Positions 16,204-58,452 of a stretch of 64,000 bases of DNA are shown in pieces (within the stretch, counting starts at the first letter, position 1; every line of letters starts with the position of its first letter). Both the position numbers and the translations under genes were made by a program. The notes beneath the pieces were generated by a model. It saw only the letters and a program-made list of their open reading frames with translations. It was not told where the DNA came from and did no database searches. This DNA is from Tubulanus polymorphus (Eukaryota > Animalia > Nemertea), in the NCBI RefSeq assembly GCF_964204645.1, contig NC_134030.1, positions 16,802,110 to 16,866,109 of the forward strand, read 5' to 3'.

Positions 16204-17609
16204 ATTTAGAAACCCTTGAATAAACACGCTTAATAAACGAGTTTACATGTGTATAACAATACCAAAAGAATGCGTGAATAGATCACTTCCGGGTTGAGCG
16301 AGTCGTACTCGACTTGCGCGCCATCATGCGGTCGCTGTGGTGTGCGGGTTCCTCATTGATTTACTACTGGTAGATCAAATATTCCTACGTTATCTTGCTG
16401 GAAATAACATACTCTAATGCATCTACAGTTGTCTTGATTTCTTGATACATTTTTGAAGTGCTTGGTTCAATACTACTTTCCATAACGACGACTTTCTGAA
16501 GAAAAACAGGTCATGAATTAACAGTTTATAGGCCCTATAATGTAACCACATGTAAGAATCTCCTTTTTTCAATCATACCTTTGTTCTCCTTGCGATTGAC
16601 TCCAGTTTTGTTTCATCATGTTTCAAATTTTTCTTTTGTTCAATCCTTAGTTTCTTATCAATTTTTTTCTTCTTCTCGTTTTCGTTCTAACTCGGCAGCT
16701 TCTAGTTTGCTCTTGTAAGCTTCGTTGCTGGATATGATGAAATAATGTTCAGGTGATGACTTTCTTTTATTTTTTGTTTTCAATGATTCTTTCGGATAGA
16801 TAAGTATGTCGCTGTTACTGCTTTCAGGGTTTGACTTGTTGGAAAATGGAATTGAAGGATCAATCGACTTCTGAAATTATTAACTGCATCAAAAACAGTC
16901 TTTTGGAATGCTCTCTAAGAAGTATGTTAAAGAAATAAGTTTTTAGCATTGGTTGACGTCTATGATGTCATGCCAATGCTAGTAAAATGGATCGAAAATA
17001 GTAGTACGAAAAAATAGCGCCGACTCTTCTCATTTTCATAGTAACTTCAAATTGTCACTCTGTTCACGTAAAACATTAGAAACAGCTGAAAATGACTAAA
17101 AAATGTTTCAATTATTCCCCACAACATAGCGTCGCCAGATTTCTGATTTAATGGTCCAAAAAGTTATTCGATCGCATTTTTCTCGTTCATTATCTGGTTG
17201 ATGAGAGCGGGTTAAACAAGGGCGTAGCGTAATGTCGGCATTGACATTGGCAGTAAAGAATGGGGAACAGCCTCTTCTGAATAGAAAAACATAAAATTAA
17301 TAGGGATAATAGGCTTTCATACCAAAGGTCGAAAGGTCGAGCCCGAGAAATTTTCCAAAATGTTAAAATAACAACAATTTCTACTTGAATTAGTCGCAAA
17401 ACTCATAAAAATGAAAAATAAATTCTCACACACTCGAATTTATTTTCCATTTTCTACTCACTAGAAGAAAGTGTGAGTAAAGTGTGAGTGAAATAGTTTA
17501 TATTTTAAACATATTTCGAGTAAAAATATTTGTATGAGTTAGATTTTTTAAACATTAAAAGTGTGAGTAAAGTGTGAGTGAAATAATTCATAAATCATTG
17601 AATATTTAT

Positions 17610-18269
17610 ATGCGTTGGATTCATTTTAATAAAAATTTTGTTATAAAAATGAAGAAAGGAGAAGAAGAACCCAACTTTAAAATCGAAATCAATGAAACCA
17701 ATAAATCATTTTCACAGTTTTACATTAAAAATTATATTTCAGCAACAAATTTAGTGTCCGCAAGGTATTATAAAATCGATAACATAACTATGATTAATCA
17801 ATTATCATCAAATGAAACATATTTAATTACTGAACTAGTAGATACTTTTGATAATGGCGTTAAAAATCCTAAAATATTCAATACAGTTTTAAATTTTAAA
17901 GGAACTTTAGATGAAAACATAATTAATATTCTTAAAACTCCTTTCAATGAAAGAAATGATGATTTAATACTTTCTAAAGATTATAATGATTTGATTAACT
18001 TAAGAATTGAAAAAAGACAATTATATTATTTCAATTTTGATAATAAACAAATTATCTATAATGAAAATTCATCAAATATTGGAATTCAATGTGAGTTAGC
18101 TAATGAAAAATCATTTAAAGATATTGCAGTTCAATGTAAATTAGATGATGAATTTAGAAAATTCAATCCTAATGAAAAAGTGCATTGTTATTGCGGAGGT
18201 AAATATTTAAAATCACATAAATCAAAGCATTATGAAACAATTAAACATAAAAACTGGCGTAAAGAGTAA
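17610..18269 (+). CDS. Unit ORF1, ~219 aa, C-terminal CxC...H...H zinc-finger-like motif
   Basis: First ATG at 17610 within ORF 17574-18269; CYCGGKYLKSHKSKHYETIKH; homologue in copy B. Confidence 0.7.
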   Translation: MRWIHFNKNFVIKMKKGEEEPNFKIEINETNKSFSQFYIKNYISATNLVSARYYKIDNITMINQLSSNETYLITELVDTFDNGVKNPKIFNTVLNFKGTLDENIINILKTPFNERNDDLILSKDYNDLINLRIEKRQLYYFNFDNKQIIYNENSSNIGIQCELANEKSFKDIAVQCKLDDEFRKFNPNEKVHCYCGGKYLKSHKSKHYETIKHKNWRKE

Positions 18270-18321
18270 CAATTCTACATTATAATTATTGAATTGAGTT
18301 AAATGATTTAAATATCTAATA

Positions 18322-18728
18322 GACTGTTGAAATGATAAATTGTTTGACAGTTGAAATGATAAATTGTTTGACAGTTAAAATGATAAATTGTTTGACAGTT
18401 AAAATGATAAATTGTTTGACAGTTGAAATGATAAGACAGTTAAAATGATAAATTGTTTGACAGTTGAAATGATAAATATTTTGACAGTTGAAATGATAAA
18501 TTGTTTGACAGTTAAAATGATAAATTGTTTGACAGTTGAAATGATAAATTGTTTGACAGTTAAAATGATACATTGTTTGACAGTTGAAATGATAAATTGT
18601 TTGACAGTTGAAATGATAAATTGTTTGACAGTTGAAATGATAAATATTTTGACAGTTGAAATGATAAATATTTTGACAGTTGAAATGATAAATTGTTCGG
18701 CAGTTGAAATGATAAATTGTTTGGCTGT
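18322..18728. repeat. 24-bp minisatellite, ~17 units
   Basis: Unit acagttgaaatgataaattgtttg; mirrored at 21803-22209; absent from copy B. Confidence 0.95.
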
Positions 18729-18847
18729 AAATTTAATTGTTATTTGATTTAATCATTTAAAAGTTTAATATTTTTAAAATGATTATAAAATATTTAATTA
18801 AAAACTAGCAAATATTTTATAAACTGTTTAATTTTTCTCTTAAATAA

Positions 18848-19066
18848 ATGGATGGTTTCATTCCAACTGGGAAAAGTGATTTGAAACATTATTTAGTTGC
18901 TGGAGGTTTAATATTGGCGGCATTATACTTTTACTATGAAAATATTTCAAAAGATTTGATGAATGAAAATAATAAATTGAGTAAAAAATTAAAGAAGTTA
19001 AATGGAAACAATCACAGAAATAAAAAGAATAAAAAAGTTAATTTAGAAAATGATTTAGAGGATTAA
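18848..19066 (+). CDS. Unit ORF2, 72 aa, single-TM protein with basic tail
   Basis: YLVAGGLILAALYFYY hydrophobic helix; TAAATG start; divergence from copy B mostly synonymous. Confidence 0.75.
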   Translation: MDGFIPTGKSDLKHYLVAGGLILAALYFYYENISKDLMNENNKLSKKLKKLNGNNHRNKKNKKVNLENDLED

Positions 19067-19104
19067 AACAGCATCTTTTAATTTCATTTATTTTGACTAT
19101 AAAA

Positions 19105-19407
19105 ATGAGTGAAAATATATTAAACTTATTACATCTAATATATAAAAATCAACAGAATATTAAATCAATTATTATGCTTACAGGTTTATTTTCATTCTCA
19201 GTTTATACTATAAAACAGTTGTTAGAATTCTATGATAGCTGTAAAATTAGATACACTGAATTAATAGAAAATATGAATTATATTTCAGATAGATTGAATA
19301 ATATTAAGTGTTGTGAAATTTGTAATAAAAGATATAAAAATAAAAAGAGTTTGAGAAATCATAAATATATTCATGAATTAGATGATAAACTGTATAATTC
19401 AAATTGA
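19105..19407 (+). CDS. Unit ORF3, ~100 aa, hydrophobic segment plus C2H2 zinc finger
   Basis: CEICNKRYKNKKSLRNHKYIH; AAAAATG start; conserved in copy B. Confidence 0.75.
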   Translation: MSENILNLLHLIYKNQQNIKSIIMLTGLFSFSVYTIKQLLEFYDSCKIRYTELIENMNYISDRLNNIKCCEICNKRYKNKKSLRNHKYIHELDDKLYNSN

Positions 19408-19520
19408 GAATAAGACTGTTAAATTGGTTGAAAATATAAAAATAGATAATATTATAACTATTTCAATATTTAGATTAATAATTTATATTTATGATTTTTA
19501 TAAAAACTAATTTATATATC

Positions 19521-19605
19521 TATGTACTAGACGTACGAGTAAGAAAGTAAGATTCTTGCCAAGAAAGTAAGAATCTTACTTTCTTACTCGTACGTCTAGT
19601 ACATA
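19521..19605. repeat. Internal perfect hairpin, 37-bp arms, 11-nt loop (mirror at 20926-21010)
   Basis: tatgtactagacgtacgagtaagaaagtaagattctt-gccaagaaagt-reverse complement. Confidence 0.9.
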
Positions 19606-21123
19606 AATAGTTTTATCATATATATTTCTGTTTCAATTTCTATTTATCTAACAGATTTATTATAAATATTTGGAAAATTATAAATCATATTCAATTATGT
19701 ATTTACATTTATCATTAATAAAAGAGGATTACAATGAACCCGCTAGATTGTTTAACTGTTTAAGTATTAAATTGTGTATATTGTATATTCATAAACTAAA
19801 TGAAATAAATCACGAATAAGACTGTTAAATTAGTTGAAAATATAAAAGTTAATAAAAAAGGGGGTTGAGGCATCAATGTATTAGATACCCTATTAGATAC
19901 CCTAATACCATGTATTAAATACGTATCAAATACGTATTAATGGTATTTAATACGTATTAATGGTATTAAATACATATTATGCTTTATTTCTGAAAATGAA
20001 GTAACAGAAGTAATTTATGTTTTAATTCATTCAAGTATGATATTGTAAATTCTTTACATTTGACTAGGATAATACAAGAGTGATATTAGTTAGTTGGCTT
20101 ATTCAATAAGAGAAACAATGAAATAATACAAGAGTGATACTAACAGTTAAAGTTATTGAATTTCTTGTTAAATCTATTTGAATTCTAGTCAATTCTTGTT
20201 AACCAATAGCGCGAATAGAAATCAAGTAGATTTAAATAAAAAAACAATAAGTTACTTTATCTAATACTAACTTATTTAACTTATTGTTTTTTTATTTAAA
20301 TCTACTTGATTTCTATTCGCGCTATTGGTTAACAAGAATTGACTAGAATTCAAATAGATTTAACAAGAAATTCAATAACTTTAACTGTTAGTATCACTCT
20401 TGTATTATTTCATTGTTTCTCTTATTGAATAAGCCAACTAACTAATATCACTCTTGTATTATCCTAGTCAAATGTAAAGAATTTACAATATCATACTTGA
20501 ATGAATTAAAACATAAATTACTTCTGTTACTTCATTTTCAGAAATAAAGCATAATATGTATTTAATACCATTAATACGTATTAAATACCATTAATACGTA
20601 TTTGATACGTATTTAATACATGGTATTAGGGTATCTAATAGGGTATCTAATACATTGATGCCTCAACCCCCTTTTTTATTAACTTTTATATTTTCAACTA
20701 ATTTAACAGTCTTATTCGTGATTTATTTCATTTAGTTTATGAATATACAATATACACAATTTAATACTTAAACAGTTAAACAATCTAGCGGGTTCATTGT
20801 AATCCTCTTTTATTAATGATAAATGTAAATACATAATTGAATATGATTTATAATTTTCCAAATATTTATAATAAATCTGTTAGATAAATAGAAATTGAAA
20901 CAGAAATATATATGATAAAACTATTTATGTACTAGACGTACGAGTAAGAAAGTAAGATTCTTACTTTCTTGGCAAGAATCTTACTTTCTTACTCGTACGT
21001 CTAGTACATAGATATATAAATTAGTTTTTATAAAAATCATAAATATAAATTATTAATCTAAATATTGAAATAGTTATAATATTATCTATTTTTATATTTT
21101 CAACCAATTTAACAGTCTTATTC

Positions 21124-21426
21124 TCAATTTGAATTATACAGTTTATCATCTAATTCATGAATATATTTATGATTTCTCAAACTCTTTTTATTTTTATATC
21201 TTTTATTACAAATTTCACAACACTTAATATTATTCAATCTATCTGAAATATAATTCATATTTTCTATTAATTCAGTGTATCTAATTTTACAGCTATCATA
21301 GAATTCTAACAACTGTTTTATAGTATAAACTGAGAATGAAAATAAACCTGTAAGCATAATAATTGATTTAATATTCTGTTGATTTTTATATATTAGATGT
21401 AATAAGTTTAATATATTTTCACTCAT
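21124..21426 (-). CDS. Unit ORF3, mirror copy
   Basis: Translation identical to 19105-19407. Confidence 0.75.
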   Translation of the reverse strand: MSENILNLLHLIYKNQQNIKSIIMLTGLFSFSVYTIKQLLEFYDSCKIRYTELIENMNYISDRLNNIKCCEICNKRYKNKKSLRNHKYIHELDDKLYNSN

Positions 21427-21464
21427 TTTTATAGTCAAAATAAATGAAATTAAAAGATGCTGTT

Positions 21465-21683
21465 TTAATCCTCTAAATCATTTTCTAAATTAACTTTTTT
21501 ATTCTTTTTATTTCTGTGATTGTTTCCATTTAACTTCTTTAATTTTTTACTCAATTTATTATTTTCATTCATCAAATCTTTTGAAATATTTTCATAGTAA
21601 AAGTATAATGCCGCCAATATTAAACCTCCAGCAACTAAATAATGTTTCAAATCACTTTTCCCAGTTGGAATGAAACCATCCAT
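21465..21683 (-). CDS. Unit ORF2, mirror copy
   Basis: Translation identical to 18848-19066. Confidence 0.75.
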   Translation of the reverse strand: MDGFIPTGKSDLKHYLVAGGLILAALYFYYENISKDLMNENNKLSKKLKKLNGNNHRNKKNKKVNLENDLED

Positions 21684-21802
21684 TTATTTAAGAGAAAAAT
21701 TAAACAGTTTATAAAATATTTGCTAGTTTTTAATTAAATATTTTATAATCATTTTAAAAATATTAAACTTTTAAATGATTAAATCAAATAACAATTAAAT
21801 TT

Positions 21803-22209
21803 ACAGCCAAACAATTTATCATTTCAACTGCCGAACAATTTATCATTTCAACTGTCAAAATATTTATCATTTCAACTGTCAAAATATTTATCATTTCAAC
21901 TTTCAAACAATTTATCATTTTAACTGTCAAACAATTTATCATTTCAACTGTCAAACAATGTATCATTTTAACTGTCAAACAATTTATCATTTCAACTGTC
22001 AAACAATTTATCATTTTAACTGTCAAACAATTTATCATTTCAACTGTCAAAATATTTATCATTTCAACTGTCAAACAATTTATCATTTTAACTGTCTTAT
22101 CATTTCAACTGTCAAACAATTTATCATTTTAACTGTCAAACAATTTATCATTTTAACTGTCAAACAATTTATCATTTCAACTGTCAAACAATTTATCATT
22201 TCAACAGTC
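21803..22209. repeat. 24-bp minisatellite, mirror copy
   Basis: Reverse complement of 18322-18728 with at least two substitutions. Confidence 0.95.
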
Positions 22210-22261
22210 TATTAGATATTTAAATCATTTAACTCAATTCAATAATTATAATGTAGAATTG

Positions 22262-22921
22262 TTACTCTTTACGCCAGTTTTTATGTTTAATTGTTTCATA
22301 ATGCTTTGATTTATGTGATTTTAAATATTTACCTCCGCAATAACAATGCACTTTTTCATTAGGATTGAATTTTCTAAATTCATCATCTAATTTACATTGA
22401 ACTGCAATATCTTTAAATGATTTTTCATTAGCTAACTCACATTGAATTCCAATATTTGATGAATTTTCATTATAGATAATTTGTTTATTATCAAAATTGA
22501 AATAATATAATTGTCTTTTTTCAATTCTTAAGTTAATCAAATCATTATAATCTTTAGAAAGTATTAAATCATCATTTCTTTCATTGAAAGGAGTTTTAAG
22601 AATATTAATTATGTTTTCATCTAAAGTTCCTTTAAAATTTAAAACTGTATTGAATATTTTAGGATTTTTAACGCCATTATCAAAAGTATCTACTAGTTCA
22701 GTAATTAAATATGTTTCATTTGATGATAATTGATTAATCATAGTTATGTTATCGATTTTATAATACCTTGCGGACACTAAATTTGTTGCTGAAATATAAT
22801 TTTTAATGTAAAACTGTGAAAATGATTTATTGGTTTCATTGATTTCGATTTTAAAGTTGGGTTCTTCTTCTCCTTTCTTCATTTTTATAACAAAATTTTT
22901 ATTAAAATGAATCCAACGCAT
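22262..22921 (-). CDS. Unit ORF1, mirror copy
   Basis: Translation identical to 17610-18269. Confidence 0.7.
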   Translation of the reverse strand: MRWIHFNKNFVIKMKKGEEEPNFKIEINETNKSFSQFYIKNYISATNLVSARYYKIDNITMINQLSSNETYLITELVDTFDNGVKNPKIFNTVLNFKGTLDENIINILKTPFNERNDDLILSKDYNDLINLRIEKRQLYYFNFDNKQIIYNENSSNIGIQCELANEKSFKDIAVQCKLDDEFRKFNPNEKVHCYCGGKYLKSHKSKHYETIKHKNWRKE

Positions 22922-25041
22922 ATAAATATTCAATGATTTATGAATTATTTCACTCACACTTTACTCACACTTTTAATGTTTAAAAAATCTAACTCATACA
23001 AATATTTTTACTCGAAATATGTTTAAAATATAAACTATTTCACTCACACTTTACTCACACTTTCTTCTAGTGAGTAGAAAATGGAAAATAAATTCGAGTG
23101 TGTGAGAATTTATTTTTCATTTTTATGAGTTTTGCGACTAATTCAAGTAGAAATTGTTGTTATTTTAACATTTTGGAAAATTTCTCGGGCTCGACCTTTC
23201 GACCTTTGGTATGAAAGCCTATTATCCCTATTACTCCCCCGGTTTATAAATATCACAGTGTTTGGATATCACTGTTATTCCAACTATCAGTATCCATGGG
23301 ATTATTTGGGATTCATTCTCAGCGTCAGAATACGTATTTCTAGAGCAGTGGAACGGCAGCCTGCTCGTGACTGAAACCCGTATGTGATCGTGCGGGAACG
23401 CCTTTACTAAAGTTAAAACCATTTCATGATGACACGAAACATCAAACAGTAAACGGTAGGCTACTACCATGATACGATATCACCAATAAAGATAGATCAT
23501 TTTATTTAATTTTACCAGAGTTGTTTATTGGAGGAAAATATCATTGTTAAGTACGCCGAGAACAACCATGTTGTATTATCAATCAGTTGAATGACATTGT
23601 AAAATTCGATTCGGCTATATTCTAATATAAGTTTTAACTTTAGGACCCCCCTTCCCGCCTGCTGCGCACTCATAAGGCGGTAGCACCCTCTTACGCACTC
23701 GGCAGAGATTCGCTTTGTAATGTGCGCCGGGAAAAAATACCTTTTATTATCTTTTCCATGCGTTAAACAACAGTGATTGAATTTAAGCGTTGTCATAAAT
23801 TGCAATATTTCGATGGTTATTTGCCGCTGCTCTAGTTTTTTGGAATTGAATTGAGCGGCCTCGGTAGCTCAGTGAGATAAGGCGTGATGCTGTTGAATCC
23901 ACTAGCAATGCTGAGTGACAAGTGGGTTCGAGTCTTGCTAGCTGCAAACAGTGTGCGGGCAACACTTCAAAGGCCGTACCATTGTGGTGTTAGATGAACA
24001 ATCCAATAGGAATAGTCTTGGGAATCCAAGATCCAAACGACGTACGTAAAGCCAAAGGAACAAAAAGACAAACAAACAATCATCAGCCGGCCTCAGTGAC
24101 ACCAACGCCGGCATCGCTCTCTGCGACGTTTTTTGCATGCATACATGCATCAGAGCTTGAAGCTCTAAGATCAGAGGGTCTCGTTAATTTTTTGTTTTCA
24201 TTATTCAGTGGGGCCTAACAGTTCATGCGTAAAAATGGGTTTTTGTCTCCAAATCTTGATTGATATAAATATCTTGGCTGGGACATGATGGAAAACATCA
24301 GAATAAACTAGTTTCGTCTTTTTAACAGAATCGCATGAATGAGGTTTAACAGTACAAATAGCCTTGGCTAAATCGTTCGGCAGAAAATAAATTCATTTTC
24401 AGGAATAAAATCGTACTAGACAAATAGACCTTTAAGTCTGTGGTCCTCCCAATCAACATCGTCATAGAAGATTTTCCGGCAGATGTAAAACATTATAACC
24501 ACTTAATACCACAGTATAATCTACCAATGCTTCAAGGCCCATGGGCCTCTTGTTAACTGACTGTATCCAGTTTATATCTTTTCCACGTTTGGTACATCAC
24601 ATCGGGAATATCATAGCCTTCAGCAAGACTTTTTTGTATTTTGATAATTGATTTGTAGTCAATGTGTTTTAAGCGCTAACGTTGACGGACACCGTCTCTC
24701 AATCCCATCGCCCTGAAGTCAACATCTTTCATTTTTTCCTCAATACCATGGAAAGACTTTAAGTCTGTGCATTGGTCCAAAAAAATGATTCTTCATTGCA
24801 GCTTCTAGTATTCATGCTTCGCAGGAGAAAAATCATCTCAACCTGGTTATCCAACATCTTTTGGAGCAATTTACAAACAGCTAAATCTACAATGGGGAAA
24901 TATCAATAGTATACATTTATTAGAAACGTAGTTATACTGAATATTTCACTTCATTTCATGCTTTCTCTCTCAAAATGGGTGATGTCATTCAAGACAATGG
25001 GTGATGTCATTCAAGACAAAGGAAAATAAAATTTTCCATCG

Positions 25042-25358
25042 TCCCTCGGCAGGGATTCGAACCTGATGGCATCGAGATTGCCACGGTACAAAACCCTGCC
25101 ACACTAGACCGAGTATGGAGCTACATGCGCAGCTTTGATGATGTCATTATCAGCCAATCAGATATCCCGTTTCATTTTAGCCCGGGTTTTCCCATTTATA
25201 GTTCTTCCTTGAAATTTTCCTCAGCGATTATACAACGAGCAATCTGGTGCTGCAAGGTTTCGTGCGGCAAAAAACCTATGCGCCCGGTCTACTGTGGCAG
25301 GGGTTCATGCCATGGCTGAGTGTAGCGATGCTATCAGGTTCGAATCCCTGCCGAGGGA
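25042..25358. mobile_element. Small inverted-repeat element with tRNA-like (Pol III A/B box) arms
   Basis: tccctcggcagggattcgaacctgatggcatcg / cgatgctatcaggttcgaatccctgccgaggga; B box GGTTCGAATCC in each arm; partial relative at ~62400-62486. Confidence 0.65.
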
Positions 25359-31622: not shown

Positions 31623-32382
31623 CTAATGTAATGATAAATTAAAGTTGATAAATAATAATCGATAAAACATAACACTAATCAGATTAATGGTCGAGGCCAC
31701 AATTATGTCCTGGTGGCTATAAAGTGAATCCAACCCTACTTGTGTACTAAGTTTGAAATAAATCTTTCAACAATTATGGCCTCTAGGCTGTTTACACGTT
31801 CACTGCCACCTAGTGGTTTAACGTCCGGTCGCCATTGCCAACGCTAATTTTTGACATTATACAATTTATATACTGCCAGCACTATTTGTACATTGATAGA
31901 TAAATACACTGATCTATTTTAGTGTAAAAAACCAATGACGAGATAACTCGTCACTGGCACTGGTAAAGAGATTCTCAATTTTTTCTTGTCCCCATTACCA
32001 GTGAAAAGCGTGAAAAATCAAATAAAAATCTAAAAGAATAAAGGTTTTATTTTAAAAATGATATAGAATGATTTTAGTCGTTATAATCTCTAAATATTGG
32101 CCGGAAAAGAAGCTAAAATGCATTGCTTTCTGAATATTTTTTTGAAAAAATTTCAAGTGTGCACCAGACTTGAGTTACCCCCATAAATGATATCTTAGTC
32201 TCTCCATACTGCCAGACAATTATTATATGGTTTCTCGCCTCTGCCAGGTCATTCATAACGCTGTAAAATGACATTGAATCGATGACGATATAACTCGTCA
32301 TGGCAAACTGTAGCGCACCCACCATGACGATTTATCTCGTCAGCGGCAGCGAACGTGTTAAGGTCACTTCAGACGAAGGTAA

Positions 32383-42600: not shown

Positions 42601-42701
42601 AAGCTAATAAATTCTAGATAATTCAGATACCTTGGTCCATTTCACATTCACTTATAAACCATCCTTGTAAAATTAATATGTTACATATACACACAGTTCA
42701 A

Positions 42702-48468: not shown

Positions 48469-49251
48469 TTAACCACTTAATAATGATTCAACATATTGTT
48501 CATTATTTGGATTATTGTTCCATAATTCAATGAATTTCTTTACTTTTGTTAACTGTTCTAAATATAACTGTAAATCTAGTTTGTCATGTTTAATCATATT
48601 TTCCTTTTTTTCAAGAGGTCTCAGGTTTTTCCAATTCCAAAGTAACTTTTTATCATATTCATCATTCATGTCAAATTTAGATATTGGTAACACATGATCA
48701 ATATGAAAATAATTGCCATAATTATTTATATTCATTTTATCATGGAATTGATATATTATCCATGATTTAAAAAATTTATCTGAACAATCCAATAAATGTG
48801 CTAGTGTAACTGAGTGGTTTTCTTTACTGAATAATTTTGATACTTTAGATCTTAAACATTTTTTCAATTTGTAATTAAAATCTGTTTGATATCTTTCTTT
48901 CTTATAATTATTTTGATACGCTTTATAATATTCTCTATTATTATCCCTCCATTCTCTCATATATTCTGTTATATAATCTGAGTGATTTTCTCTCCATTGT
49001 TTATTTCTAACTTTGAATTTTTCAATATTATCCATATAATATTGTGTTGAATAATTTGGATTATTTTCAAGAAATTTGTTATTGTATAGTTTAGTACAGC
49101 TTTTGCAATATGTTTGTTTGCCATCTTTTTTAGTTTTATTTTTTTGAAATTCTGTTAATGATTTATTCAATTCACACTTATTACATTTCTTATAGCATAT
49201 ATTTATTACACCATCATTGTTTATATTTATAGCTTGTGATTGTTCCTCCAT
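48469..49251 (-). CDS. 260-aa His-Me finger (HNH / endonuclease VII-like) protein of giant-virus type
   Basis: N-terminal CNKC...EF......DG....CKSC; C-terminal NYGNYFHIDHVLPISKF...NWKNLRPLEKKENMIKHDK; intact and intronless; TAAATG start. Confidence 0.75.
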   Translation of the reverse strand: MEEQSQAININNDGVINICYKKCNKCELNKSLTEFQKNKTKKDGKQTYCKSCTKLYNNKFLENNPNYSTQYYMDNIEKFKVRNKQWRENHSDYITEYMREWRDNNREYYKAYQNNYKKERYQTDFNYKLKKCLRSKVSKLFSKENHSVTLAHLLDCSDKFFKSWIIYQFHDKMNINNYGNYFHIDHVLPISKFDMNDEYDKKLLWNWKNLRPLEKKENMIKHDKLDLQLYLEQLTKVKKFIELWNNNPNNEQYVESLLSG

Positions 49252-49318
49252 TTATAATATATATTTTTATTAAAATTGATTAACATTTTAGAATCCTCTT
49301 CCATTTCTTCGACTAACG

Positions 49319-49606
49319 TCATCCTTTTTCATTCCTTAAAATATCATTATTCTTATTTCTAATATGACTTTTAGATTTTAAATGTTCATTATAATATCTT
49401 TTATCACTGAATGATTGATTACATGTATCACATTTGTATGTTTCTTTTTCATTCTTTAATTCATCTAATTTAGTTTCTAATATATCATCGTTATATTCTA
49501 GTTTCAATTTATTCTCTAAATGTGTTTTAGTTTTATTGTGTCTTGCTTTTTGGGATTAATCTATATTGATATTACATGTTGCGCGGTAGTACTTATTTGC
49601 TTCCAT
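49319..49606 (-). pseudogene. Small two-zinc-finger protein with an internal stop
   Basis: ATG at 49606 is in frame with 49319-49507; YKCDTCNQSFSDKRYYNEHLKSKSH plus a degenerate first finger (ATCNINID*SQKARHNKTKTH). Confidence 0.6.
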
Positions 49607-49812
49607 TTTAATACTAAATTTTTTATTAAAATTGATTTTAGAAGTTCAATGATTTATATCATGTATTATTTCAATCACACTTTACTAACACTTTTAATGT
49701 TTAAAAATCTAACTCATACAAATATAAATATTGAAATAATGTTGTAAATATATACTTTTATATTGAATAATCTGTCAATTTAAATGTTATTCATGTATAT
49801 GATTATTTTAAG

Positions 49813-50221
49813 AGTAATAGGGGTATTGGGCTTTCAGGTTAAAGGTTGAATGGTCGAGTTCATTAAAAACAAATATTAAAAGTAATTTAAAACTATAATA
49901 TATTTTCATAACCGTGTGTATTTCAGTTGAATAATAGAATAATTATTATTATAAAAATATATTTGATTATATGAATTTGTGTATTGAAAATAAATCAATT
50001 GGTCGCGGAGCGGAGCGGTAGCGAAGTGGAGCGACCAATTGATTTAATACAATATGCTTTTAAAATTTAAATTATTAATATCTTAGAATAAATATTTAGT
50101 TATAATATAAAATGCACACGGTTATGAAAATATATTATAGTTTAAAATTACTTTTAATGTTTTGTTTTTAATGAGCTCGACCATTCGACCTTTGGCTTGA
50201 AAGCCCATTACCCCTATTACT
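49813..50221. repeat. Terminal hairpin of copy C: ~110-bp outer arms and a 16-bp inner stem
   Basis: agtaatagggg...gtgtgtattt / aaatgcacac...cccctattact; inner taaatcaattggtcgc / gcgaccaattgattta. Confidence 0.9.
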
Positions 50222-51310: not shown

Positions 51311-52591
51311 TCATACCGCACATAAGCCTGGTCTTCGTGCCTTTTTATTGATCGAAAACATTGCTTTCAGTTGATTTCGAAATCGACGCCTCGACGCACA
51401 ATAGATGATAAAATTACTAGATGCTACGATCATTCTGATGATATTTTGGAGTTGGTTCAATATCGCGTATGAGGAGCTTCTACCGATCGTGCCGTTCAGA
51501 GTTAAAATAAGATTGATTATTGCTGCTCTTAGAAAAAAGGCTTTTTTCACTAAATACAAACACGAGATGAGAACTAACGTCAATGTTAGGCTAAGGTCAT
51601 TGCTGTTAGGGTTGCTGGTGCTGTTACTGTTGAGAATTTTGTTGTATGTAGACATGGTTTTTCTCGCTGACCTTGCGCGTCTCAACGTGAAAATCAATCG
51701 GATGGTTATAACAACCACGATCATGGTCGGGATTATAGTTATTATAGGAGCGCGGGCAAAGACATTATAGTATTTCAAGTACTTGTTTTTCCCAAATGGA
51801 GTGAACCTACGCGTCCATCTCTCGTGTCCAGTGCACGGATTGATAGAACGACGAGTATAATACTTGAAAATATCCCGAGACTGATCACAGGCTGACAATA
51901 CTGCCACCAGAATGATGCAGATATAACTTCTCTTCATGCTTATGATTCTGACAGCTTTCAGGGGCCAACAAACAGCGATATATCTGTCAATAGCTATCAA
52001 CAATGTGATCAGATCACTGATACTTGATGATAAGATGCGTATGTTTTGAGTATAGGTGTACATGCGCTTCATAGTATGGTTTATTTCAGCAGTCATGTCC
52101 AGTAACAATGTGTGACTGTAGAGCCAGTACTGAATGTCAAATATAATATAAGACAAACAAATAGAGAAATCCGCAACTGCCAAACACCTCAAATAGAATA
52201 TACTGGTGTTATTTGAACGTTCTTTGCTGAGAAGTATAAAAGACAGTAAATTGGTGCCGAAACCAAAGATGACAATGCCGAAAATAACGTAAGTAGTGAC
52301 CTGTATTAGAAGATTCACGTGAAACGGTTTGTAATCGGCATGATGTATGTATTTACACCGCGGATGAGGTTTAAACCCGGCCTTTTCGGTGGTGGTTGCC
52401 TGGTCCGATCCATTGAAGCCGAGAAACCAACCGCCAAGTGTAGCATTTTCTGACGAAGCCATTTCCGCCATACACGATTTGCATACAGTCACAGGTAAAT
52501 TAGGTAGCTGTCTTAAACTCCCATATTCCAAATTCTTTAAATCAGTCACCCACCTTGCTGCAGCAGTGACGATGGAAGACTGAAAATCCAC
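51311..52591 (-). CDS. Class A (rhodopsin-like) GPCR, invertebrate FMRFamide/peptide-receptor-like, intronless
   Basis: Seven hydrophobic segments; GTN (TM1), LAVAD (TM2), IAIDRYIAVCWP (DRY), NFIIYC (TM7), RRFR helix 8. Confidence 0.9.
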   Translation of the reverse strand: MDFQSSIVTAAARWVTDLKNLEYGSLRQLPNLPVTVCKSCMAEMASSENATLGGWFLGFNGSDQATTTEKAGFKPHPRCKYIHHADYKPFHVNLLIQVTTYVIFGIVIFGFGTNLLSFILLSKERSNNTSIFYLRCLAVADFSICLSYIIFDIQYWLYSHTLLLDMTAEINHTMKRMYTYTQNIRILSSSISDLITLLIAIDRYIAVCWPLKAVRIISMKRSYICIILVAVLSACDQSRDIFKYYTRRSINPCTGHERWTRRFTPFGKNKYLKYYNVFARAPIITIIPTMIVVVITIRLIFTLRRARSARKTMSTYNKILNSNSTSNPNSNDLSLTLTLVLISCLYLVKKAFFLRAAIINLILTLNGTIGRSSSYAILNQLQNIIRMIVASSNFIIYCASRRRFRNQLKAMFSINKKARRPGLCAV

Positions 52592-53736
52592 ATACAGTTC
52601 TTCAGGTTGATATCATACGCAAAATCTATGACATTTTTTTTAAGTAAGCTACGATTACCAATTAAACGGTCAATTTTGAAATAATGAGGGAAAAGATATG
52701 CCAATCGTTATATTCGAATAATATATGCGAATCACATGGAGAGAAAGCTCTCTACTGTACGTTACTATAGTAACCATGGTGGCCGATACTGGAAATAAAA
52801 TATGACGCCCAATCTTTGAAAATGGACAGGCGGCAATTTAAACATGGCATGCGAATCTACATACAATTGAAACTTTGTAATTGCTCTGTTGTTTTATATG
52901 ATAACCTTATTGCGTTTCGAGTTTAAGGGAATGACGTTATGAGAATAAAATCATTTGCAATCGTCGCGCAGAGTCACGCAAAGAAAGCTTATGGAATGAG
53001 GACGTACACTAGCCCTAAGGCCACACCAAAGGAAAACCCTGTTTCTTGGGCCCGACCGACCCGACATTTCGTCGTTTCAAATAATCATTTTCTGAATAAA
53101 ATAATATTGCCTACCCACCCTCTTTCAAAATTTGGGTAAAATAAAATTGTTTCAACAGTATATATGTGGTTGACCGACTACCAAACTCTCCATTCTCGTA
53201 AATATTTTTTTTCCTTTTTAATCGAATTGTGATGTCGGCAATAAGATCAACATCATAAGAATATTTTATTACATCTGATTTAACAGTTTGATTATGGATT
53301 GGATTGTACAATTCAGGAATAAATAGTTTTTTTATAGGTAATTGTACAAACGCTTCAATTTCCTTTAATCATTGTGGTCTACTAGCTGGTAATCATATTC
53401 TTGACTAAAAATTTGGTCCAGTAAAAAGGATTAACGGCGACATACCCCATTTTCAAAGTGTACCCACAATATTTTTTCTATAAAAAGAAAAAACAATTCC
53501 ATACCTACCTACCGATTTTGGTAATTGCCCGGCCAGAGAAACAGCATTTTTTATGTGAACGTATCCAAATTATTTTAGCACAATACACTTTAGCGTATTG
53601 AGTTTTTATCCATGGTGCTATATTTATTGGGCATATGGGCATAAATTGTATGCATATATGGTTGACGATTATGAATAATATACACTAGCTTCCAACTCAG
53701 TTTTACAACAGAAAATACAACATTATGTACCGTAGA

Positions 53737-53772
53737 TAGCAAGGAATATATACGTGTATATATTCCTTGCTA
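53737..53772. repeat. 36-bp palindrome (17-bp arms, GT loop)
   Basis: tagcaaggaatatatac-gt-gtatatattccttgcta. Confidence 0.85.
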
Positions 53773-54205
53773 CACCATCTGAAGAATTAACGGTTTAGTT
53801 ATGCAAATGATTCATCACATGGCAGTTGAAGGATGAAGGGAGAACATGTAGCTCAAAAAACACACTTTAATGTAACGATACGTAATGAATCGGGAATTGT
53901 GATCTTTGGGTCGACTAACCATAACGATCTAGTCACATCTCTTTCAACAGGATGTAAGCCGTCCTATAAAACGCTTTCTCAATATCAGAACAATGGGATT
54001 TTGAACGAAATCTCAATTATATGGCCGTGATATTATTAAATAGAGTTCTATGTATTCCTTTAAACTCGGTGAACCAAAGCTGCAACCGAACACAACCGAG
54101 GCGATTTGTGTCGTGCAGGAATCGCGAAAAATCTCGTGCCAGCGGGAAGCGCAGTGTTTTAGGCCCCACTGGCAGGGAACCTTCATTGTTTCTGATTCGT
54201 CTGCG

Positions 54206-54369
54206 TCTAGTCAATTCTTGTTAACCAATAGCGCGAATAGAAATCAAAAAGATTTAAATAAAAAAACAATAAGTTAAATAAGTTAGTATTAGATAAAGTA
54301 ACTTATTGTTTTTTTATTTAAATCTTTTTGATTTCTATTCGCGCTATTGGTTAACAAGAATTGACTAGA
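54206..54369. repeat. Left hairpin of copy B: 71-bp perfect arms, 22-nt loop
   Basis: Loop aataagttagtattagataaag is the reverse complement of the centre of A. Confidence 0.95.
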
Positions 54370-55313
54370 TTTCAAATAGATTTAACAAGAAATTCAATAA
54401 CTTTAACTGTTAGTATCACTCTTGTATTATTTCATTGTTTCTCTTATTGAATAAGCCAACTAACTAATATCACTCTTGTATTATCCTAGTCAAATGTAAA
54501 GAATTAACAATATCATACTTGAATGAATTAAAACATAAATTACTTCTGTTACTTCATTTTCAGAAATAAAACATAATATGTATTTAATACATTGATATCT
54601 CAACCCCCTTTTTTGGTTCACTAATATTTCATACAGTATTCCATACATTTCAGCTAATTTAACAGTCTTATTCGTGATTTATTTCATTTAGTTTATGAAT
54701 ATACAATGTACAAATTTAATACTTAAACAGTTAAACAATCTAGCGGGTTAATTGTAATCCTCTTTTATTAATGATAAATGTAAATACATAATTGAATATG
54801 ATTTATACTTTTCCAAATATTCATAATAAAATCTGTGAGATAAATAACTATTGAAACAGAAATATATATGATAAAACTATTTATATATCTATGTACTAGA
54901 CGTACGAGTAAGAATCCAAGAAATCTTACTTTCTTGGCAAGAATCTTACTTTCTTACTCGCACGTCTAGTATATAGATATATAAATTAGTTTTTATAAAA
55001 ATTATAAATATAAATTATTAATCTAAGAAATAGTTATAATATAATCTATTTTTTATTTTTATTATGTGAAAACATATAATTTATTCATTTTTATAAATAT
55101 ATTAGAATTATTATTAGAATAATTATTATAAAACTAATTCATATACCCAAGTACGAGACGTACGAGTAAGAATCCAAGATTCTTACTTTCTTGGTAAGAA
55201 TCTTACTTTCTTACTCGTACGTCTAGTACATAGATATATAAATTAGTTTTTATAAAAATCATAAATATAAATTATTAATCTAAATATAGAAATAGTTATG
55301 ATATAATCTATTT

Positions 55314-56500
55314 TTTGACGCCTTATAAAACGTTACCATTATGAAACCTAAACAATGTTAACCATTCAGCGTCATTTTACAAACGACAGCCGTAAATCGA
55401 TGTGCAAAACGTCACAGGTCTATGTGTACGCAAACAAGCTATCTGGCAAAATATTATTGACATAGATGTAGAATGGCTTCCTGTGATTATATAATGACCT
55501 ATATTTGAACGTCGAAATGTTATATTGCATTGAATATCATTAGAAGACGTATTGTAATAGTAAAGGATGTATGATTATATCAGAAACGGCAGGCATAAAT
55601 AGAAATGATAAGTAAATCGGATTATTCGGTTAAATGGCGGATGTATACACGATTTGGAAGTCTGATATAAAAGTCAGACCCTAACGTTGGCATGCCGGTG
55701 GAATGACGAAGCTATCTACGATGTGTGTAGGGCCGGCGTGAATTTCATCAGCGGCTACAAGCGGTAAATATGAAAATGTGTAAACATATAATTTCAATAT
55801 TCAAACGTTTTAGAAAATATGTTTGATATTAGGAGTATGCAGGTTTCGTGAGATTAGCAATTTATAATAGCATAGCTGTCATATACGGCTCCGCGTCCTC
55901 TGATGGCATGTGTATTAGGTGACAATTCAATTCTTTATTGATCCTTATTACATTGAAATTCCGGGATAAAATTCCCAATTCAATAAATACAAATTTTAAA
56001 ATAAATTAATACAACATACATGACACACGGGTAATTCATACAGAACAACATAAGCATGTTATTTTAAATGACAATGTCTACTTCAACCCACCCAGACTCA
56101 AGACTCTAGGATATCGAGTGACAGCCAAACCCGTGGCCCGGGCCCGGGGACCGGGCCGGCTGGCTAGGCCACACGATATGCTCGAAGTCATGATGAAGCA
56201 GACATCAGAAGAGCTCTTTCTTCAACCATGGAGGCAATGAAGTTGCAGACCAGCTTAGAGGCATAAGTAAATGAAGTCGGTCGCAAGTTCGCGATCAATT
56301 ATTGACGAATTTTCAATTAAAAAATTTAAACCACTACTAGAGTCGAAGACCTGTATCATCTACCCAATCGCAAAATCTCATCATTCCCCAAATTTCTTAA
56401 AACTTCGATTTCAAATTTGCAATTCCACATTAGCTTAGCCCAGAAATTCTACATTTTTTTCGCAGGCGTCAAATAATTTTCTAAAATTAATTTTCTTGTT
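55314..56500 (+). mobile_element. Helentron-like (DINE/HINE-type) insertion inside copy B
   Basis: Absent from A; tttgacgcct / aggcgtcaaa asymmetric TIR followed by a taatttt-ct-aaaatta stem-loop and tcttgtt; inserted in a T-run. Confidence 0.7.
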
Positions 56501-56531
56501 ATATATTTCAGCCAATTTAACAGTCTATTGC

Positions 56532-56834
56532 TTAATTTGAATTATAGAGTTTATCATCTAATTCATGAATATATTTATGATTTCTCAAATTCTTTTTATT
56601 TTTATATCTTTTATTACAAATTTCACAACACTTAATATTATTCAATCTATCTGAAATATAATTTATATTATCTTTCAATTCTGTATATCTAATTTTACAA
56701 GAATCATAGAATTCTAACAACTGTTTTATACTATAAATTGAAAAAGAAAATAAACCTGTAAGCATAATAAATGATTTAATATTCTGTTGATTTTTATATA
56801 TTAGATGTAATAAGTTTAATATATTTTCACTCAT
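56532..56834 (-). CDS. Unit ORF3 (copy B), C2H2 zinc finger
   Basis: Intact and about 93% identical in protein to copy A. Confidence 0.75.
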   Translation of the reverse strand: MSENILNLLHLIYKNQQNIKSFIMLTGLFSFSIYSIKQLLEFYDSCKIRYTELKDNINYISDRLNNIKCCEICNKRYKNKKNLRNHKYIHELDDKLYNSN

Positions 56835-56872
56835 TTTTATAGTCAAAATATATGAAATTAAAAGATGCTGTT

Positions 56873-57091
56873 TTAATCCTCTAAATCATTTTCAAAATTA
56901 ACTTTTTTATTGTTTTTATTTCTGTGATTGTTTCCATTTAACTTCTTTAATTTTTTACTCAATTTATTATTTTCATTAATCAAATCTTTTGAAATATTCT
57001 CATAGTAAAAATATAATGCAGCTAATATTAATCCTCCAGCTACAAGATAATGTTTTAAATCACTTTTCCCAGTTGGGATGAAACCATCCAT
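56873..57091 (-). CDS. Unit ORF2 (copy B), small TM protein
   Basis: 69/72 aa identical to copy A. Confidence 0.75.
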   Translation of the reverse strand: MDGFIPTGKSDLKHYLVAGGLILAALYFYYENISKDLINENNKLSKKLKKLNGNNHRNKNNKKVNFENDLED

Positions 57092-57150
57092 TTATTTAAG
57101 AAAGAAATTAAAAGATTGATAATTAATTTGAAATATCTTATTTTGAATAT

Positions 57151-57810
57151 TTAGAGTTGAATTATTACTTTTGAGTTATGATATTTTGATTTAAGATGGT
57201 GTGATTTATTGCTTCGAGTACAATATTTTCCACAATTACATAAAACGCTTTCATTAGGATTATATTTAGGCGCAACAATTTCATTATCTAAGTTACATTG
57301 AATTCCAATATTTTTATATGATTTTTCATTATCTAATTCACATTGAATACCAACATTTGATGAATTTTCATTATAGATAATTTGTTTATTATCAAAATTG
57401 AAATAATATAATTGTCTTTTTTCAATTCTTAAGTTAATCAAATCATTGTAATCTTTTGAAAGTATTAAATCATCATTTCTTTAATTGGAAGGAGTTTTAA
57501 GAATATTCATTATGTTTTCATCTAAAGTTCCTTTAAAATTAAAAACTGTATTGAACATTATAGGATTTTTAACACCATTATCAAAAGTATCAATTAGTTT
57601 AGTAATTAAATATGTTTCATTTGATAATATTTGATTAATTACAGTAATGTTATCAATTTTATAATGTCTTGCGGACACTAAATTTGTTGCTGAAATATAA
57701 TTTTTAATGTTAAACTGTGAAAATGATTTATTGGTTTCATTGATTTCGATTTTGAAGTTGGGTTCTTCTTCTTTCTTCATTTTAATAACAAAACTTTCAT
57801 TAAAACTCAT
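57151..57810 (-). pseudogene. Unit ORF1 (copy B) with one premature stop
   Basis: 57481-57810 and 57151-57441 are in frame; TAA replaces the GAA of copy A; alternative C-terminal finger CNCGKYCTRSNKSHHLKSKYH. Confidence 0.75.
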
Positions 57811-57814
57811 TCAA

Positions 57815-58190
57815 ATATAAATATTCAATGTTTTAAATATGAATTATTTCACTCGTTAATTACTCGTTACTTTTTATGTTTAAAAATCAAGAATTTATCG
57901 CATATAAATATAAATATTCACTGTTTTAAATATGAATTATTTCACTCGTTAATTACTCGTTACTTTTTATATTGAAAATAAGAATTTAACGCATATAAAT
58001 ATAAATATTCACTGTTTTAGATATGAATTATTTCAATCACACTTTACTAACACTTTTAATGTTTAAAAATCTAACTCATACAAAAAATATTGAAATAATA
58101 TATAATAATAATATATAAATATTGAAATAATGTTTAAAATATATCTATATTATCTATTCTATTAGAGCTCACACTTTACTAACACTTTTA
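57815..58190. repeat. ~92-bp subterminal tandem repeats of copy B
   Basis: atataaatattca.tgtttta.atatgaattatttca... three times, each with a doubled cactcgtt/cacacttt core. Confidence 0.75.
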
Positions 58191-58256
58191 CATTGAATAA
58201 TCTCTCAATTTATATGTTATTCATATATATTTTATTCATGTATATAAATATTTTAA

Positions 58257-58452
58257 GAGTAAAAGGGGTTTAGTTGTTCTAGGTTAAAGGTTGAATGGTC
58301 GAGAAATTTTCCAAATGTGAAAATAATAATAATTTCTACTTGAATTAGGAGTGTATGCGACTAATTCAAGTAGAAATTATTGTTATTTTCACATTTGGAA
58401 AATTTCTCGACCGTTCGACCTTTGGCCTAGAACAACTAAACCCCTATTACTC
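58257..58452. repeat. Right terminal hairpin of copy B: 92-bp arms, 12-nt loop
   Basis: gagtaaaaggggtttag...tgaattag-gagtgtatgcga-ctaattca...ctaaacccctattactc. Confidence 0.95.

What the first reader, a model, noticed from the sequence alone, without database searches (positions are those of the whole stretch)
17296..58451. Candidate new family of hairpin-ended, virus-like linear DNA elements, seen as dimer (A), monomer (B) and variant-cargo (C) forms
Seen: three very AT-rich intronless islands (A 17296-23235, C ~48340-50221, B 54206-58451) share the terminus ...GACCTTTGG...CCCTATTACT-3' and a subterminal repeat. B is a ~3-kb unit with a long palindrome at both ends. A is two such units joined through B's left palindrome. 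C carries different genes behind the same end. None encodes a transposase, integrase, RT, Rep or polymerase, and no TSD is visible. Known: hairpin ends with inverted dimer junctions characterise rolling-hairpin or telomere-resolution replicons (parvoviruses, poxviruses, linear plasmids), and AG...CT termini characterise Polinton/Mavericks. Inference: a helper-dependent, hairpin-ended mini-replicon (satellite or defective of a Polinton-like or large DNA virus) with swappable cargo that has integrated repeatedly. It fits no standard TE superfamily I can recognise.
Basis: partly seen in the sequence, partly recalled or inferred. Interest (0 to 1): 0.93.

Follow-up and report, generated by a model that had tools for sequence, protein, structure and literature searches.

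The report
Mirror-image satellites of a Polinton virus
Three AT-rich islands in an animal genome share the ends of a many-copy virus-like transposon family of the Polinton/Maverick kind (one keeps a broken stub of that kind's DNA polymerase gene, one is a 5.9-kb mirror-image palindrome), and they likely ride on a helper Polinton by folding back on themselves during copying, a likely variant of a known element and not a new kind.

Summary
The anatomy is real; the reading as a family unlike any known TE is not. Island C keeps codons 1-98 of a protein-primed DNA polymerase (63% identical to a metagenomic Polinton-type pPolB), followed by the HNH gene that follows that polymerase, beside AGT...ACT ends. 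A and B share those ends and a start-codon motif. Reads show roughly 250-320 precise ends per single-copy depth, with unlike flanks. A is a young whole-element palindrome (5,940 bp, 22-nt imperfect loop), likely a snap-back satellite copied by a helper Polinton. B is one arm plus 82 bp; its left end did not recur in a second DNA run. B and C end in 194- and 409-bp fold-backs whose transitions give 12 G.T and 0 A.C pairs on the 3'-end strand. Not shown: a helper with these ends, episomes, TSDs (absent at A). Terminal palindromes are in a 2026 preprint on protist virophages. This scan already noted palindromic Polinton satellites in at least 4 other genomes. Verdict: new variant of a known kind; interest 0.5.

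The parts
17296..23235 (.). Element A: whole-element palindrome, 5,940 bp, 22% GC, Polinton-type ends, no TSD
   Evidence: its two flanks are contiguous in an empty-site-like contig of a paralogous host repeat (table 7)
17649..18269 (+). ORF1, 206 aa (219 from an upstream ATG at 17610); C-terminal zinc finger, rest without homologue; mirror copy 22262-22882 (-)
   Evidence: 19 hits, all on the zinc-finger end; pLDDT 31; start motif shared with the pPolB and HNH genes
18322..18723 (.). 17 x 24-bp tandem array (mirror 21808-22209); absent from B
18848..19066 (+). ORF2, 72 aa with one hydrophobic segment (mirror 21465-21683; B 56873-57091)
   Evidence: no Pfam family
19105..19407 (+). ORF3, 100 aa, hydrophobic segment plus C2H2 finger (mirror 21124-21426; B 56532-56834)
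   Evidence: (zf-C2H2_4, E 5e-4, below the curated cut-off)
19517..19609 (.). 93-bp internal hairpin (mirror 20922-21014; present twice in B, about 54873-54993 and 55119-55250)
20255..20276 (.). Central AT-rich, incompletely paired loop of A; same loop, reverse-complemented, at 54276-54299 in B
   Evidence: reads of a second DNA run cross it at depth 77 against 60-76 on the arm
22883..23235 (-). Family end of A: subterminal ACTCACAC repeats and AGTAATAGGG terminus, without the inner palindrome arm
   Evidence: 1,317 reads break off behind 23235 with unlike flanks
48469..49251 (-). Element C: HNH / endonuclease VII gene, 260 aa, open
   Evidence: phrog_1035 E 2e-16; 52% identical to the HNH right behind pPolB in L006/L007
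49328..49606 (-). Element C: relic of pPolB codons 1-98 (two zinc fingers), broken by an in-frame stop near its start; about 3.8 kb of polymerase core missing
   Evidence: 63% aa, E 6e-30, 76-79% nt to L006/L007; matches 3 of 120 pPolB homologues
49607..49812 (-). Element C: subterminal repeat shared with A and B
49813..50221 (+). Element C: 409-bp terminal palindrome AGTAATAGGG...CCCTATTACT
   Evidence: 7 G.T, 0 A.C, 2 other in 108 aligned pairs
54206..54369 (.). Element B: left hairpin, perfect 70-bp arms and 24-nt loop; equals A's centre
   Evidence: junction with host DNA confirmed by a 1,065-bp contig with 0 differences
55315..56471 (.). Nested 38% GC insertion in B, bounded by a short inverted repeat (TGACGCCT)
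57151..57780 (-). Element B: ORF1 copy, broken by a stop at 57481-57483, with a diverged zinc-finger end
58258..58451 (+). Element B: 194-bp terminal palindrome (91-bp arms, 12-nt loop)
   Evidence: 5 G.T, 0 A.C, 1 other in 91 pairs; inverted joints at the matching place in 208 and 194 reads

Best explanation
A, B and C are defective members of one many-copy element family with Polinton/Maverick-type ends, C keeps a broken stub of a Polinton-type polymerase gene, and the family likely borrows the polymerase and integrase of an intact helper, with the palindrome A likely copying as a fold-back ('snap-back') satellite. Steps. (1) Shown: shared AGT...ACT end and subterminal repeat; hundreds of precise ends in unlike flanks; pPolB stub plus HNH in Polinton order in C. 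(2) Inferred from how protein-primed replicons work: the helper's pPolB starts at the AGT terminus and displaces one strand. (3) Inferred: A's displaced strand folds at the 22-nt loop into a 3-kb hairpin whose open end is again a double-stranded origin; copying it gives back the 5.9-kb palindrome, so hairpin and dimer alternate with no Rep or resolvase. (4) Inferred: in B- and C-type ends the 3'-terminal strand folds back locally (194 and 409 bp), re-forming the origin or a primer without needing the far end. (5) Inferred: copies enter chromosomes mostly through the helper's rve integrase (precise CT ends); B and C are broken or deleted copies.
For: C 49606-49328 matches aa 1-98 of the 1,365-aa ORF of L006 (63%, E 6e-30), and the HNH follows in the same order. 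That ORF has the B-family motifs, folds with pLDDT 86, and its best matches are phi29 polymerase (E 3e-17) and PolBs of MELD, adintovirus and densovirus-labelled entries (E 4e-54 to 1e-48). 20 of its 120 listed homologues carry PF03175. An rve integrase lies 1.4 kb downstream of the HNH in L007 (E 6.5e-9). AGT...ACT is the commonest vertebrate Maverick end (PMC8097293 section 7). A start-codon motif derived from these sites occurs 5 times on both strands of the window, all at element genes, and twice in L006, once at pPolB. Run X5: 1,317 reads leave the element behind 23235 with flank agreement 0.34; depth falls from about 180x single copy in the subterminal repeat to 55-83x in ORF1 and 9-14x at the centre. 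The terminal fold-backs give 12 G.T against 0 A.C pairs (p 0.0005; 9:0, p 0.004, after merging 3 shared sites), which points to a single-stranded phase of that strand. [quoted passage not shown]
Against: No helper with these ends was seen: the genome is not held, L006/L007 lack their termini and do not match the end, and 0 matches to two end patterns were found in viral contigs. The link from A/B to a Polinton is indirect, through the end shared with C and the start motif; ORF1 and ORF2 matched none of 25 related pPolB loci, nor did ORF3. The pPolB stub is only two zinc fingers, which are mobile modules. A has no TSD, where Polintons make 5-8 bp (bioRxiv 2023.08.22.554363), and the empty-site-like contig implies 4-8 host bases lost. 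The terminus is AGTAAT, not the perfect (AGT)2. Loop depth equals arm depth in X5, which fits one long arm per loop better than the 1:2 ratio of pure dimers.
Confidence: 0.72

Rival explanations
1. Hairpin-capped replicon: B-like monomers with a closed left loop and a self-priming right fold-back exist as free DNA and replicate by a rolling-hairpin route through A-like dimers, using Polinton-derived ends.
For: AT-rich imperfect loop like poxvirus telomeres (PMC8956199, abstract start only). Loop depth 77 against arm depth 60-76, and no inverted joint at 54206 among the 8 joints listed. Terminal fold-backs are common (208 and 194 reads) and strand-biased. Three inner-arm differences are shared by B and C although their arms otherwise differ. 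Hairpin priming is proposed for terminal palindromes of protist virophages and PLVs (10.64898/2026.07.28.741278 section 7). Run X1 holds arm contigs at depth about 2,000 against 30-37 for single loci, 2-5 times the X5 ratio.
Against: No recurrent end at or near 54206 among the 6 best X5 loose ends (each 11 or more reads; 95 further rows over both runs not shown) and no place where many molecules end. No Rep, resolvase or nicking protein other than the HNH in C. A lacks the terminal fold-back yet is the youngest copy. The X1 excess could be AT bias, ploidy of the baseline or individual copy number. The G.T bias is also what cytosine deamination on a displaced strand gives.
Confidence: 0.17
2. 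Passive chromosomal debris: ordinary Polinton ends were truncated, and A arose once by a fold-back (template switch at a short inverted repeat) without ever replicating as a satellite.
For: No TSD and a small target loss at A; B and C each have one broken end; depth decays inward from the end as in a decaying family.
Against: Both ends of A join the two halves of one host repeat, so A entered as a finished unit. The same loop is present at about 10-15 copies in another DNA run, with variants of shorter arms. B carries the identical loop at 97.7% arm identity.
Confidence: 0.08
3. Assembly artefact: the 5.9-kb palindrome is a chimeric long read or a collapsed repeat.
Against: A's flanks are the two halves of one host sequence, which a fold-back chimera would not restore. 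The arms differ at 3 sites outside the loop. B's junction and the loop are in public runs.
Confidence: 0.03

Closest known systems
Polinton/Maverick elements of animals (adintoviruses; Beta-type pPolB judged from the lack of a direct PF03175 hit)
   Same: AGT...ACT ends, subterminal repeats of a few hundred bp, AT-rich intronless genes pointing inward, pPolB followed by HNH and an rve integrase in the nearest relative (L006/L007), many chromosomal copies with precise ends.
   Different: No intact pPolB, integrase, ATPase, protease or capsid in these three copies; 2-6 kb against 13-25 kb; A is wholly palindromic; B and C ends carry 194-409-bp fold-backs; no TSD at A.
Virophages and PLV subtype 4 of Halocafeteria seosinensis with terminal palindromes (bioRxiv 10.64898/2026.07.28.741278)
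   Same: Palindrome inside the TIR at the very end, proposed to fold and prime replication.
   Different: 52 nt in subtype 5 against 194-409 bp here; there complete elements of a protist, mostly with non-pPolB replicases; here an animal family tied to pPolB, with a whole-element palindrome as well.
Hairpin/duplex deletion derivative of the kalilo linear plasmid (Vierula and Bertrand 1992, title seen in a reference list; pGKL1 hairpin plasmids recalled)
   Same: A protein-primed replicon yields a shortened form that alternates between hairpin and palindromic duplex and needs the parent's polymerase.
   Different: Those are organellar or cytoplasmic plasmid derivatives; here the form is integrated many times in a nuclear genome and carries its own small genes.
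Poxvirus/ASFV hairpin telomeres and parvovirus rolling-hairpin ends (search listings; mechanism recalled)
   Same: AT-rich, incompletely paired loop that appears as an inverted dimer junction; a 3' end able to fold back.
   Different: No resolvase or HUH Rep gene, no fixed resolution site seen, and the outer arm has the same form at all 4 termini in the window (no flip/flop there).
Transpovirons (PMC5499653, passage)
   Same: Small linear helper-dependent DNA with terminal inverted repeats in the Polinton supergroup.
   Different: Transpovirons encode an SF1 helicase and depend on mimiviruses; none is present here.

Membership tests
Polinton/Maverick (lineage) | [quoted passage not shown] | tested here: inconclusive
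   Only a broken 98-codon 5' stub in C; the parent ORF in L006 is a pPolB; none in A or B. Met for ancestry of C, not met for autonomy.
Polinton/Maverick (lineage) | rve integrase gene | tested here: not met
   None in the three islands; present downstream of pPolB-HNH in L007.
Polinton/Maverick (lineage) | AG...CT / AGT...ACT termini | tested here: met
   3 of 4 outer termini read AGTAATAGGG, A's left reads ATTAATAGGG; first three letters as in (AGT)2//(ACT)2 of PMC8097293, the second triplet differs.
Polinton/Maverick (lineage) | Terminal inverted repeats of about 50-1,500 bp | tested here: met
   End and subterminal repeat shared by the ORF1 end (A, B) and the pPolB end (C); in A the whole element is the repeat.
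Polinton/Maverick (lineage) | 5-8-bp target-site duplication | tested here: not met
   0 of 1 two-ended copy (A) has one; a later small deletion at A's left junction cannot be excluded; B and C have one end only.
Polinton/Maverick (lineage) | Capsid, packaging ATPase and protease module | tested here: not met
   No such ORF in the islands; L006/L007 cover under 8 kb and show none.
Non-autonomous Polinton derivative | An autonomous helper with the same ends in the same genome | not testable with these tools
   Genome not held; a scan note mentions Polinton copies on another piece (e1-10418976), ends not compared.
Non-autonomous Polinton derivative | Many insertions with a precise end | tested here: met
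   1,317 reads end behind 23235 with unlike flanks, about 250-320 per single-copy depth, inner arms included.
Rolling-hairpin / telomere-resolution replicon | Self-complementary terminal hairpins | tested here: met
   B left and right, C right; A's outer ends lack them.
Rolling-hairpin / telomere-resolution replicon | Fixed resolution site giving a recurrent monomer end | tested here: not met
   No recurrent end at 54206 among the listed loose ends, joints or molecule ends in X5 (the loose-end table is cut).
Rolling-hairpin / telomere-resolution replicon | HUH Rep, protelomerase or resolvase in cis | tested here: not met
   No such family in ORF1-3; the RepL hit of ORF1 (E 0.018) is below cut-off; an HNH/endonuclease VII is present in C only.
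Rolling-hairpin / telomere-resolution replicon | Free, covalently closed linear DNA | not testable with these tools
   Short reads and contigs cannot tell a closed hairpin from a dimer junction; the X1 depth excess is ambiguous.

The most novel reading that the evidence does not exclude
An animal Polinton lineage has moved to hairpin-capped replication. Its 3' ends fold back on a conserved, deliberately mismatched inner arm to prime synthesis, and its gene-bearing satellites exist as free 3-kb molecules closed by a poxvirus-like AT-rich loop, with A as the trapped dimer intermediate. This would be a living link between protein-primed Polintons and hairpin-ended viruses.
Probability: 0.17. Interest if true: 0.82.

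Novelty: new variant of a known kind. Interest (0 to 1): 0.5.

Why it matters
Polinton replication rests on a model of single-stranded fold-back intermediates that the papers read here describe as a model still to be tested. A multi-copy whole-element palindrome and strand-biased terminal fold-backs are the traces such intermediates would leave, and they give fixed sizes (3-kb hairpin, 5.9-kb duplex) to look for on a gel or in long reads. They also show that Polintons can carry small satellites with their own genes, which repeat annotation would miss. I found no paper describing whole-palindrome Polinton satellites, but the library lacks most subscription papers and Repbase, and this scan has noted the form in other genomes.

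Tried and rejected
Genome-wide search: no genome held; L006/L007 records not held. ORF1: 0 of 133 candidates at E<=0.001; Atlas best score 0.88, unnamed; 19 profile hits, all on the C-terminal zinc finger, 2 of 5 checked being GIY-YIG proteins; model pLDDT 31, not used for a fold search. ORF3: 0 of 21 viral stretches. End patterns in viral contigs: 0 matches. pPolB as a single query in viral contigs: 0 of 20; as an alignment 25 of 69, but these 25 loci share neither the ends nor ORF1-3, and none of their ends was recognisable as an AGT-capped long palindrome, so they do not show whether the fold-back is clade-wide. Rfam: 0 matches in 17000-59000. PDB sequence search of pPolB: only zinc fingers. 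L007 ORF211: no Pfam or Atlas hit, so a resemblance to adintovirus accessory genes was dropped. No RNA holder listed. Episomal amplification in run X1: about 55-65 arm units against 9-14 in X5, but baselines may differ twofold and AT bias is uncontrolled, so not used as evidence. A CRESS-type origin (TATTAC inside the terminus) was considered from memory and dropped: no Rep, and the motif is part of the AGT end. bioRxiv 2022.05.25.493380 concerns protein beta-hairpins; PMC11296320 and PMC6431247 passages added no hairpin-ended Polinton.


Full report
1. Observation. The window is eukaryotic DNA of about 38% GC with host transposons and a GPCR frame; scan notes call the animal a ribbon worm, which I did not test. 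The three islands are 21-26% GC. A (17296-23235) is a 5,940-bp palindrome. Of 18 positions that differ from its reverse complement, 12 lie in the loop 20255-20276; the others are two substitutions in the tandem array and one at the terminus, each counted twice. Each arm reads, from the end inward: terminus and subterminal repeats, ORF1, a 17 x 24-bp array, ORF2, ORF3, a 93-bp hairpin, non-coding DNA, loop. B (54206-58451) is colinear with one arm, lacks the array, has the 93-bp hairpin twice, holds a 1,157-bp insertion, and runs 82 bp past the centre, which makes a hairpin with perfect 70-bp arms; its loop is the reverse complement of A's. B and C end in palindromes of 194 and 409 bp that begin AGTAA(T/A)AGGG and end CCCTATTACT (z -25 and -22); A's ends have only the outer arm. 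The end motif is above chance (8 hits with at most 1 mismatch, 0 of 100 shuffles reach 8). There is no TSD at A.

2. What C is. The 260-aa ORF of C is an endonuclease VII/HNH (phrog_1035, E 2e-16). Its best relative (53%) led to two overlapping metagenomic contigs, L006 and L007, with the order pPolB-like ORF, HNH, two small ORFs, rve integrase. C matches them in two adjacent blocks: 49606-49328 to aa 1-98 of the 1,365-aa ORF (63% aa, E 6e-30; 76-79% nt) and the HNH (52% aa, 70% nt). The start of the large ORF and the start of the HNH are 4,114 bp apart in L006 and 355 bp apart in C, so about 3.8 kb is missing, and the stub has an in-frame stop. The large ORF is a protein-primed polymerase: motifs at 487, 664, 922, 1088 and 1187; 20 of 120 listed homologues carry PF03175, though it has no direct hit itself; its model (pLDDT 86) matches phi29 polymerase first in PDB (E 3e-17) and MELD, adintovirus and densovirus-labelled PolBs first among viral models. 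Of the 120 homologues, 3 match C's stub. Caveat: the stub is two zinc fingers; the case rests on identity plus gene order.

3. What ties A and B to C. They share the terminal 45 bp and a subterminal block. A pattern drawn from the start-codon contexts (so not a blind test) occurs 5 times on both strands of the 64 kb, at the three ORF1 copies, the pPolB stub and the HNH, and twice in L006, once at pPolB. AGT...ACT is the commonest Maverick end in vertebrates, with TIRs of 46-1,447 bp and 6-bp TSDs (PMC8097293, passages and section 7). ORF1-3 have no informative homologue: only zinc-finger matches.

4. Reads. In raw DNA reads of run X5 (12% read; single-copy depth about 5, from 7 bins ranging 2.7-9.4), 1,317 reads leave the element exactly behind 23235 and their continuations disagree (agreement 0.34). 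That is about 250-320 ends per single-copy depth, inner arms included. Depth is about 180x in the subterminal repeat, 55-83x in ORF1, 22-36x in ORF2-3 and 9-14x at the centre. Inverted joints at 23134/23138 (208 reads) and 23078/23138 (194) show that B-type terminal palindromes are common. Contigs in X2 and X3 from a paralogous host repeat (30 differences in 211 bp) join A's right flank to a sequence matching its left flank at 19 of 21 letters, with 4 letters between: A entered as a unit, with 4-8 host bases lost and no duplication; a TSD removed by a later small deletion is also possible. At B's left end, a 1,065-bp X1 contig confirms the junction with 0 differences at single-locus depth. In X5 no listed loose end (6 best shown, 95 further rows over both runs hidden), joint (8 of 8 listed) or molecule end marks 54206. 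Against my reading, loop depth (77) equals arm depth (60-76) and no inverted joint marks A-like continuation, which fits one long arm per loop better than pure dimers; palindromes bias short-read libraries and the tables are cut, so this is unresolved. X1 arm contigs reach depth about 2,000 against 30-37 for single loci, 2-5 times the X5 ratio depending on baseline; I do not count this as evidence of episomes. The tables show only part of their rows, and A's own junctions were not seen in them.

5. The terminal fold-backs. Folded on the strand that ends in TATTACT-3', the aligned arms of B (91 pairs) and C (first 108 pairs; the inner, poorly aligned part of C was left out) have 12 G.T, 0 A.C and 3 other mismatches (p 0.0005, or 0.004 with 3 shared sites merged). 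Three inner-arm differences are the same in B and C while neighbouring letters follow each element's own outer arm. Either the fold of that strand is selected, or that strand is single-stranded often enough to deaminate; both imply a single-stranded phase. All 4 outer termini have the same form, so no flip/flop is seen at this end.

6. Mechanism. Shown: shared Polinton-type end, many precise insertions, pPolB-HNH relic, palindromic anatomy, strand bias. Inferred: a helper pPolB primes at the AGT terminus and displaces a strand; A's strand folds into a 3-kb hairpin whose open end is a duplex origin, and copying restores the palindrome; B/C-type ends fold back locally; the helper's integrase makes most insertions. 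Confidence is about 0.9 for Polinton descent and 0.72 for the whole account. Rivals: hairpin-capped free monomers 0.17, passive debris 0.08, artefact 0.03.

7. Comparison with what is known. Polintons are defined by pPolB and an rve integrase (PMC8502044, PMC6431247, bioRxiv 2023.08.22.554363; passages); these copies fail autonomy and the TSD test (0 of 1), so I file them as derivatives, not as autonomous members. Terminal palindromes with a hairpin-priming model are described for Halocafeteria virophages and one PLV subtype, mostly with non-pPolB replicases (10.64898/2026.07.28.741278, passages and section 7; its supplements are closed and may list lengths or pPolB-bearing cases). A hairpin/duplex deletion derivative of kalilo is known (title only). 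Poxvirus and AAV hairpins were seen as search listings only. Kapitonov and Jurka 2006 was not read; its non-autonomous Polintons are recalled, and a phrase search found 1 paper, about Tlr1. Searches listed no paper whose title or abstract start describes whole-palindrome Polinton satellites (25 of 175, 12 of 12, 20 of 30, 3 of 3 and 1 of 1 listed). This scan holds 13 notes in at least 4 other genomes matching 'palindromic Polinton snap-back satellite' (8 shown), one a 5-kb gene-bearing form, and 2 notes on terminal hairpins. These came after my reading was recorded, are unchecked, and are not counted as support.

8. Verdict. Real, and a new variant of a known kind. What this window adds is one family showing a gene-bearing whole palindrome, a polymerase-end deletion derivative and long strand-biased terminal fold-backs together. 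Interest 0.5; 0.82 if free hairpin-capped forms are found (probability 0.17).

Noticed in passing
window 9452-12053 (-): DIRS-like retrotransposon remains: gag-like ORFs, reverse transcriptase (PF00078, E 9e-18) and RNase H (PF17917); the DIRS label is recalled from gene order.
   Followed up: partly
window 51311-52612 (-): Long open frame for a rhodopsin-family GPCR (PF00001 E 1.4e-10, Srw E 5.7e-9) between C and B.
   Followed up: partly
window 25037-25362: MITE-like repeat with precise ends: 2,721 and 3,765 loose-end reads in run X5, depth about 600-850x single copy.
   Followed up: partly
window 23236-24729 and left of 17296: A sits inside a host repeat with depth about 150-300x single copy; contigs of a paralogous copy join A's two flanks (19 of 21 letters match the left flank) with 4 letters between.
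   Followed up: yes
window 55315-56471: 1,157-bp, 38% GC insertion in B bounded by an 8-10-bp inverted repeat, holding a GC-rich GGGCCC stretch near 56130-56170; family not identified.
   Followed up: no
window 27320-28027 and 30765-31376 (-); 4167-4685 (-): Transposase-like open frames (CMC/EnSpm-like by recall, no Pfam hit; an HTH-bearing Tc1/mariner-like frame).
   Followed up: partly
window 32381-33301: 30.7 x 30-bp tandem array with a 334-codon open frame on the minus strand.
   Followed up: no
window 59634-59783, 58577-58716, 496-1265: Further host palindromes (150 bp at 98.7%; 140 bp at 72%; a MITE-like pair), unrelated to the family end.
   Followed up: no
L006 and L007 (overlapping, 99.6% identical): Metagenomic contigs of a 22% GC Polinton-type element: 117-aa ORF, pPolB 1,365 aa, HNH, 211-aa and 129-aa ORFs, rve integrase; 70-79% nucleotide identity to C, so a close relative of this family occurs in environmental samples.
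   Followed up: yes
window 19517-19609 and B copies: A 93-bp internal hairpin lies just downstream of ORF3 and is duplicated in B; it may be a transcript-end signal like the hairpins of giant viruses (recalled), untested.
   Followed up: no
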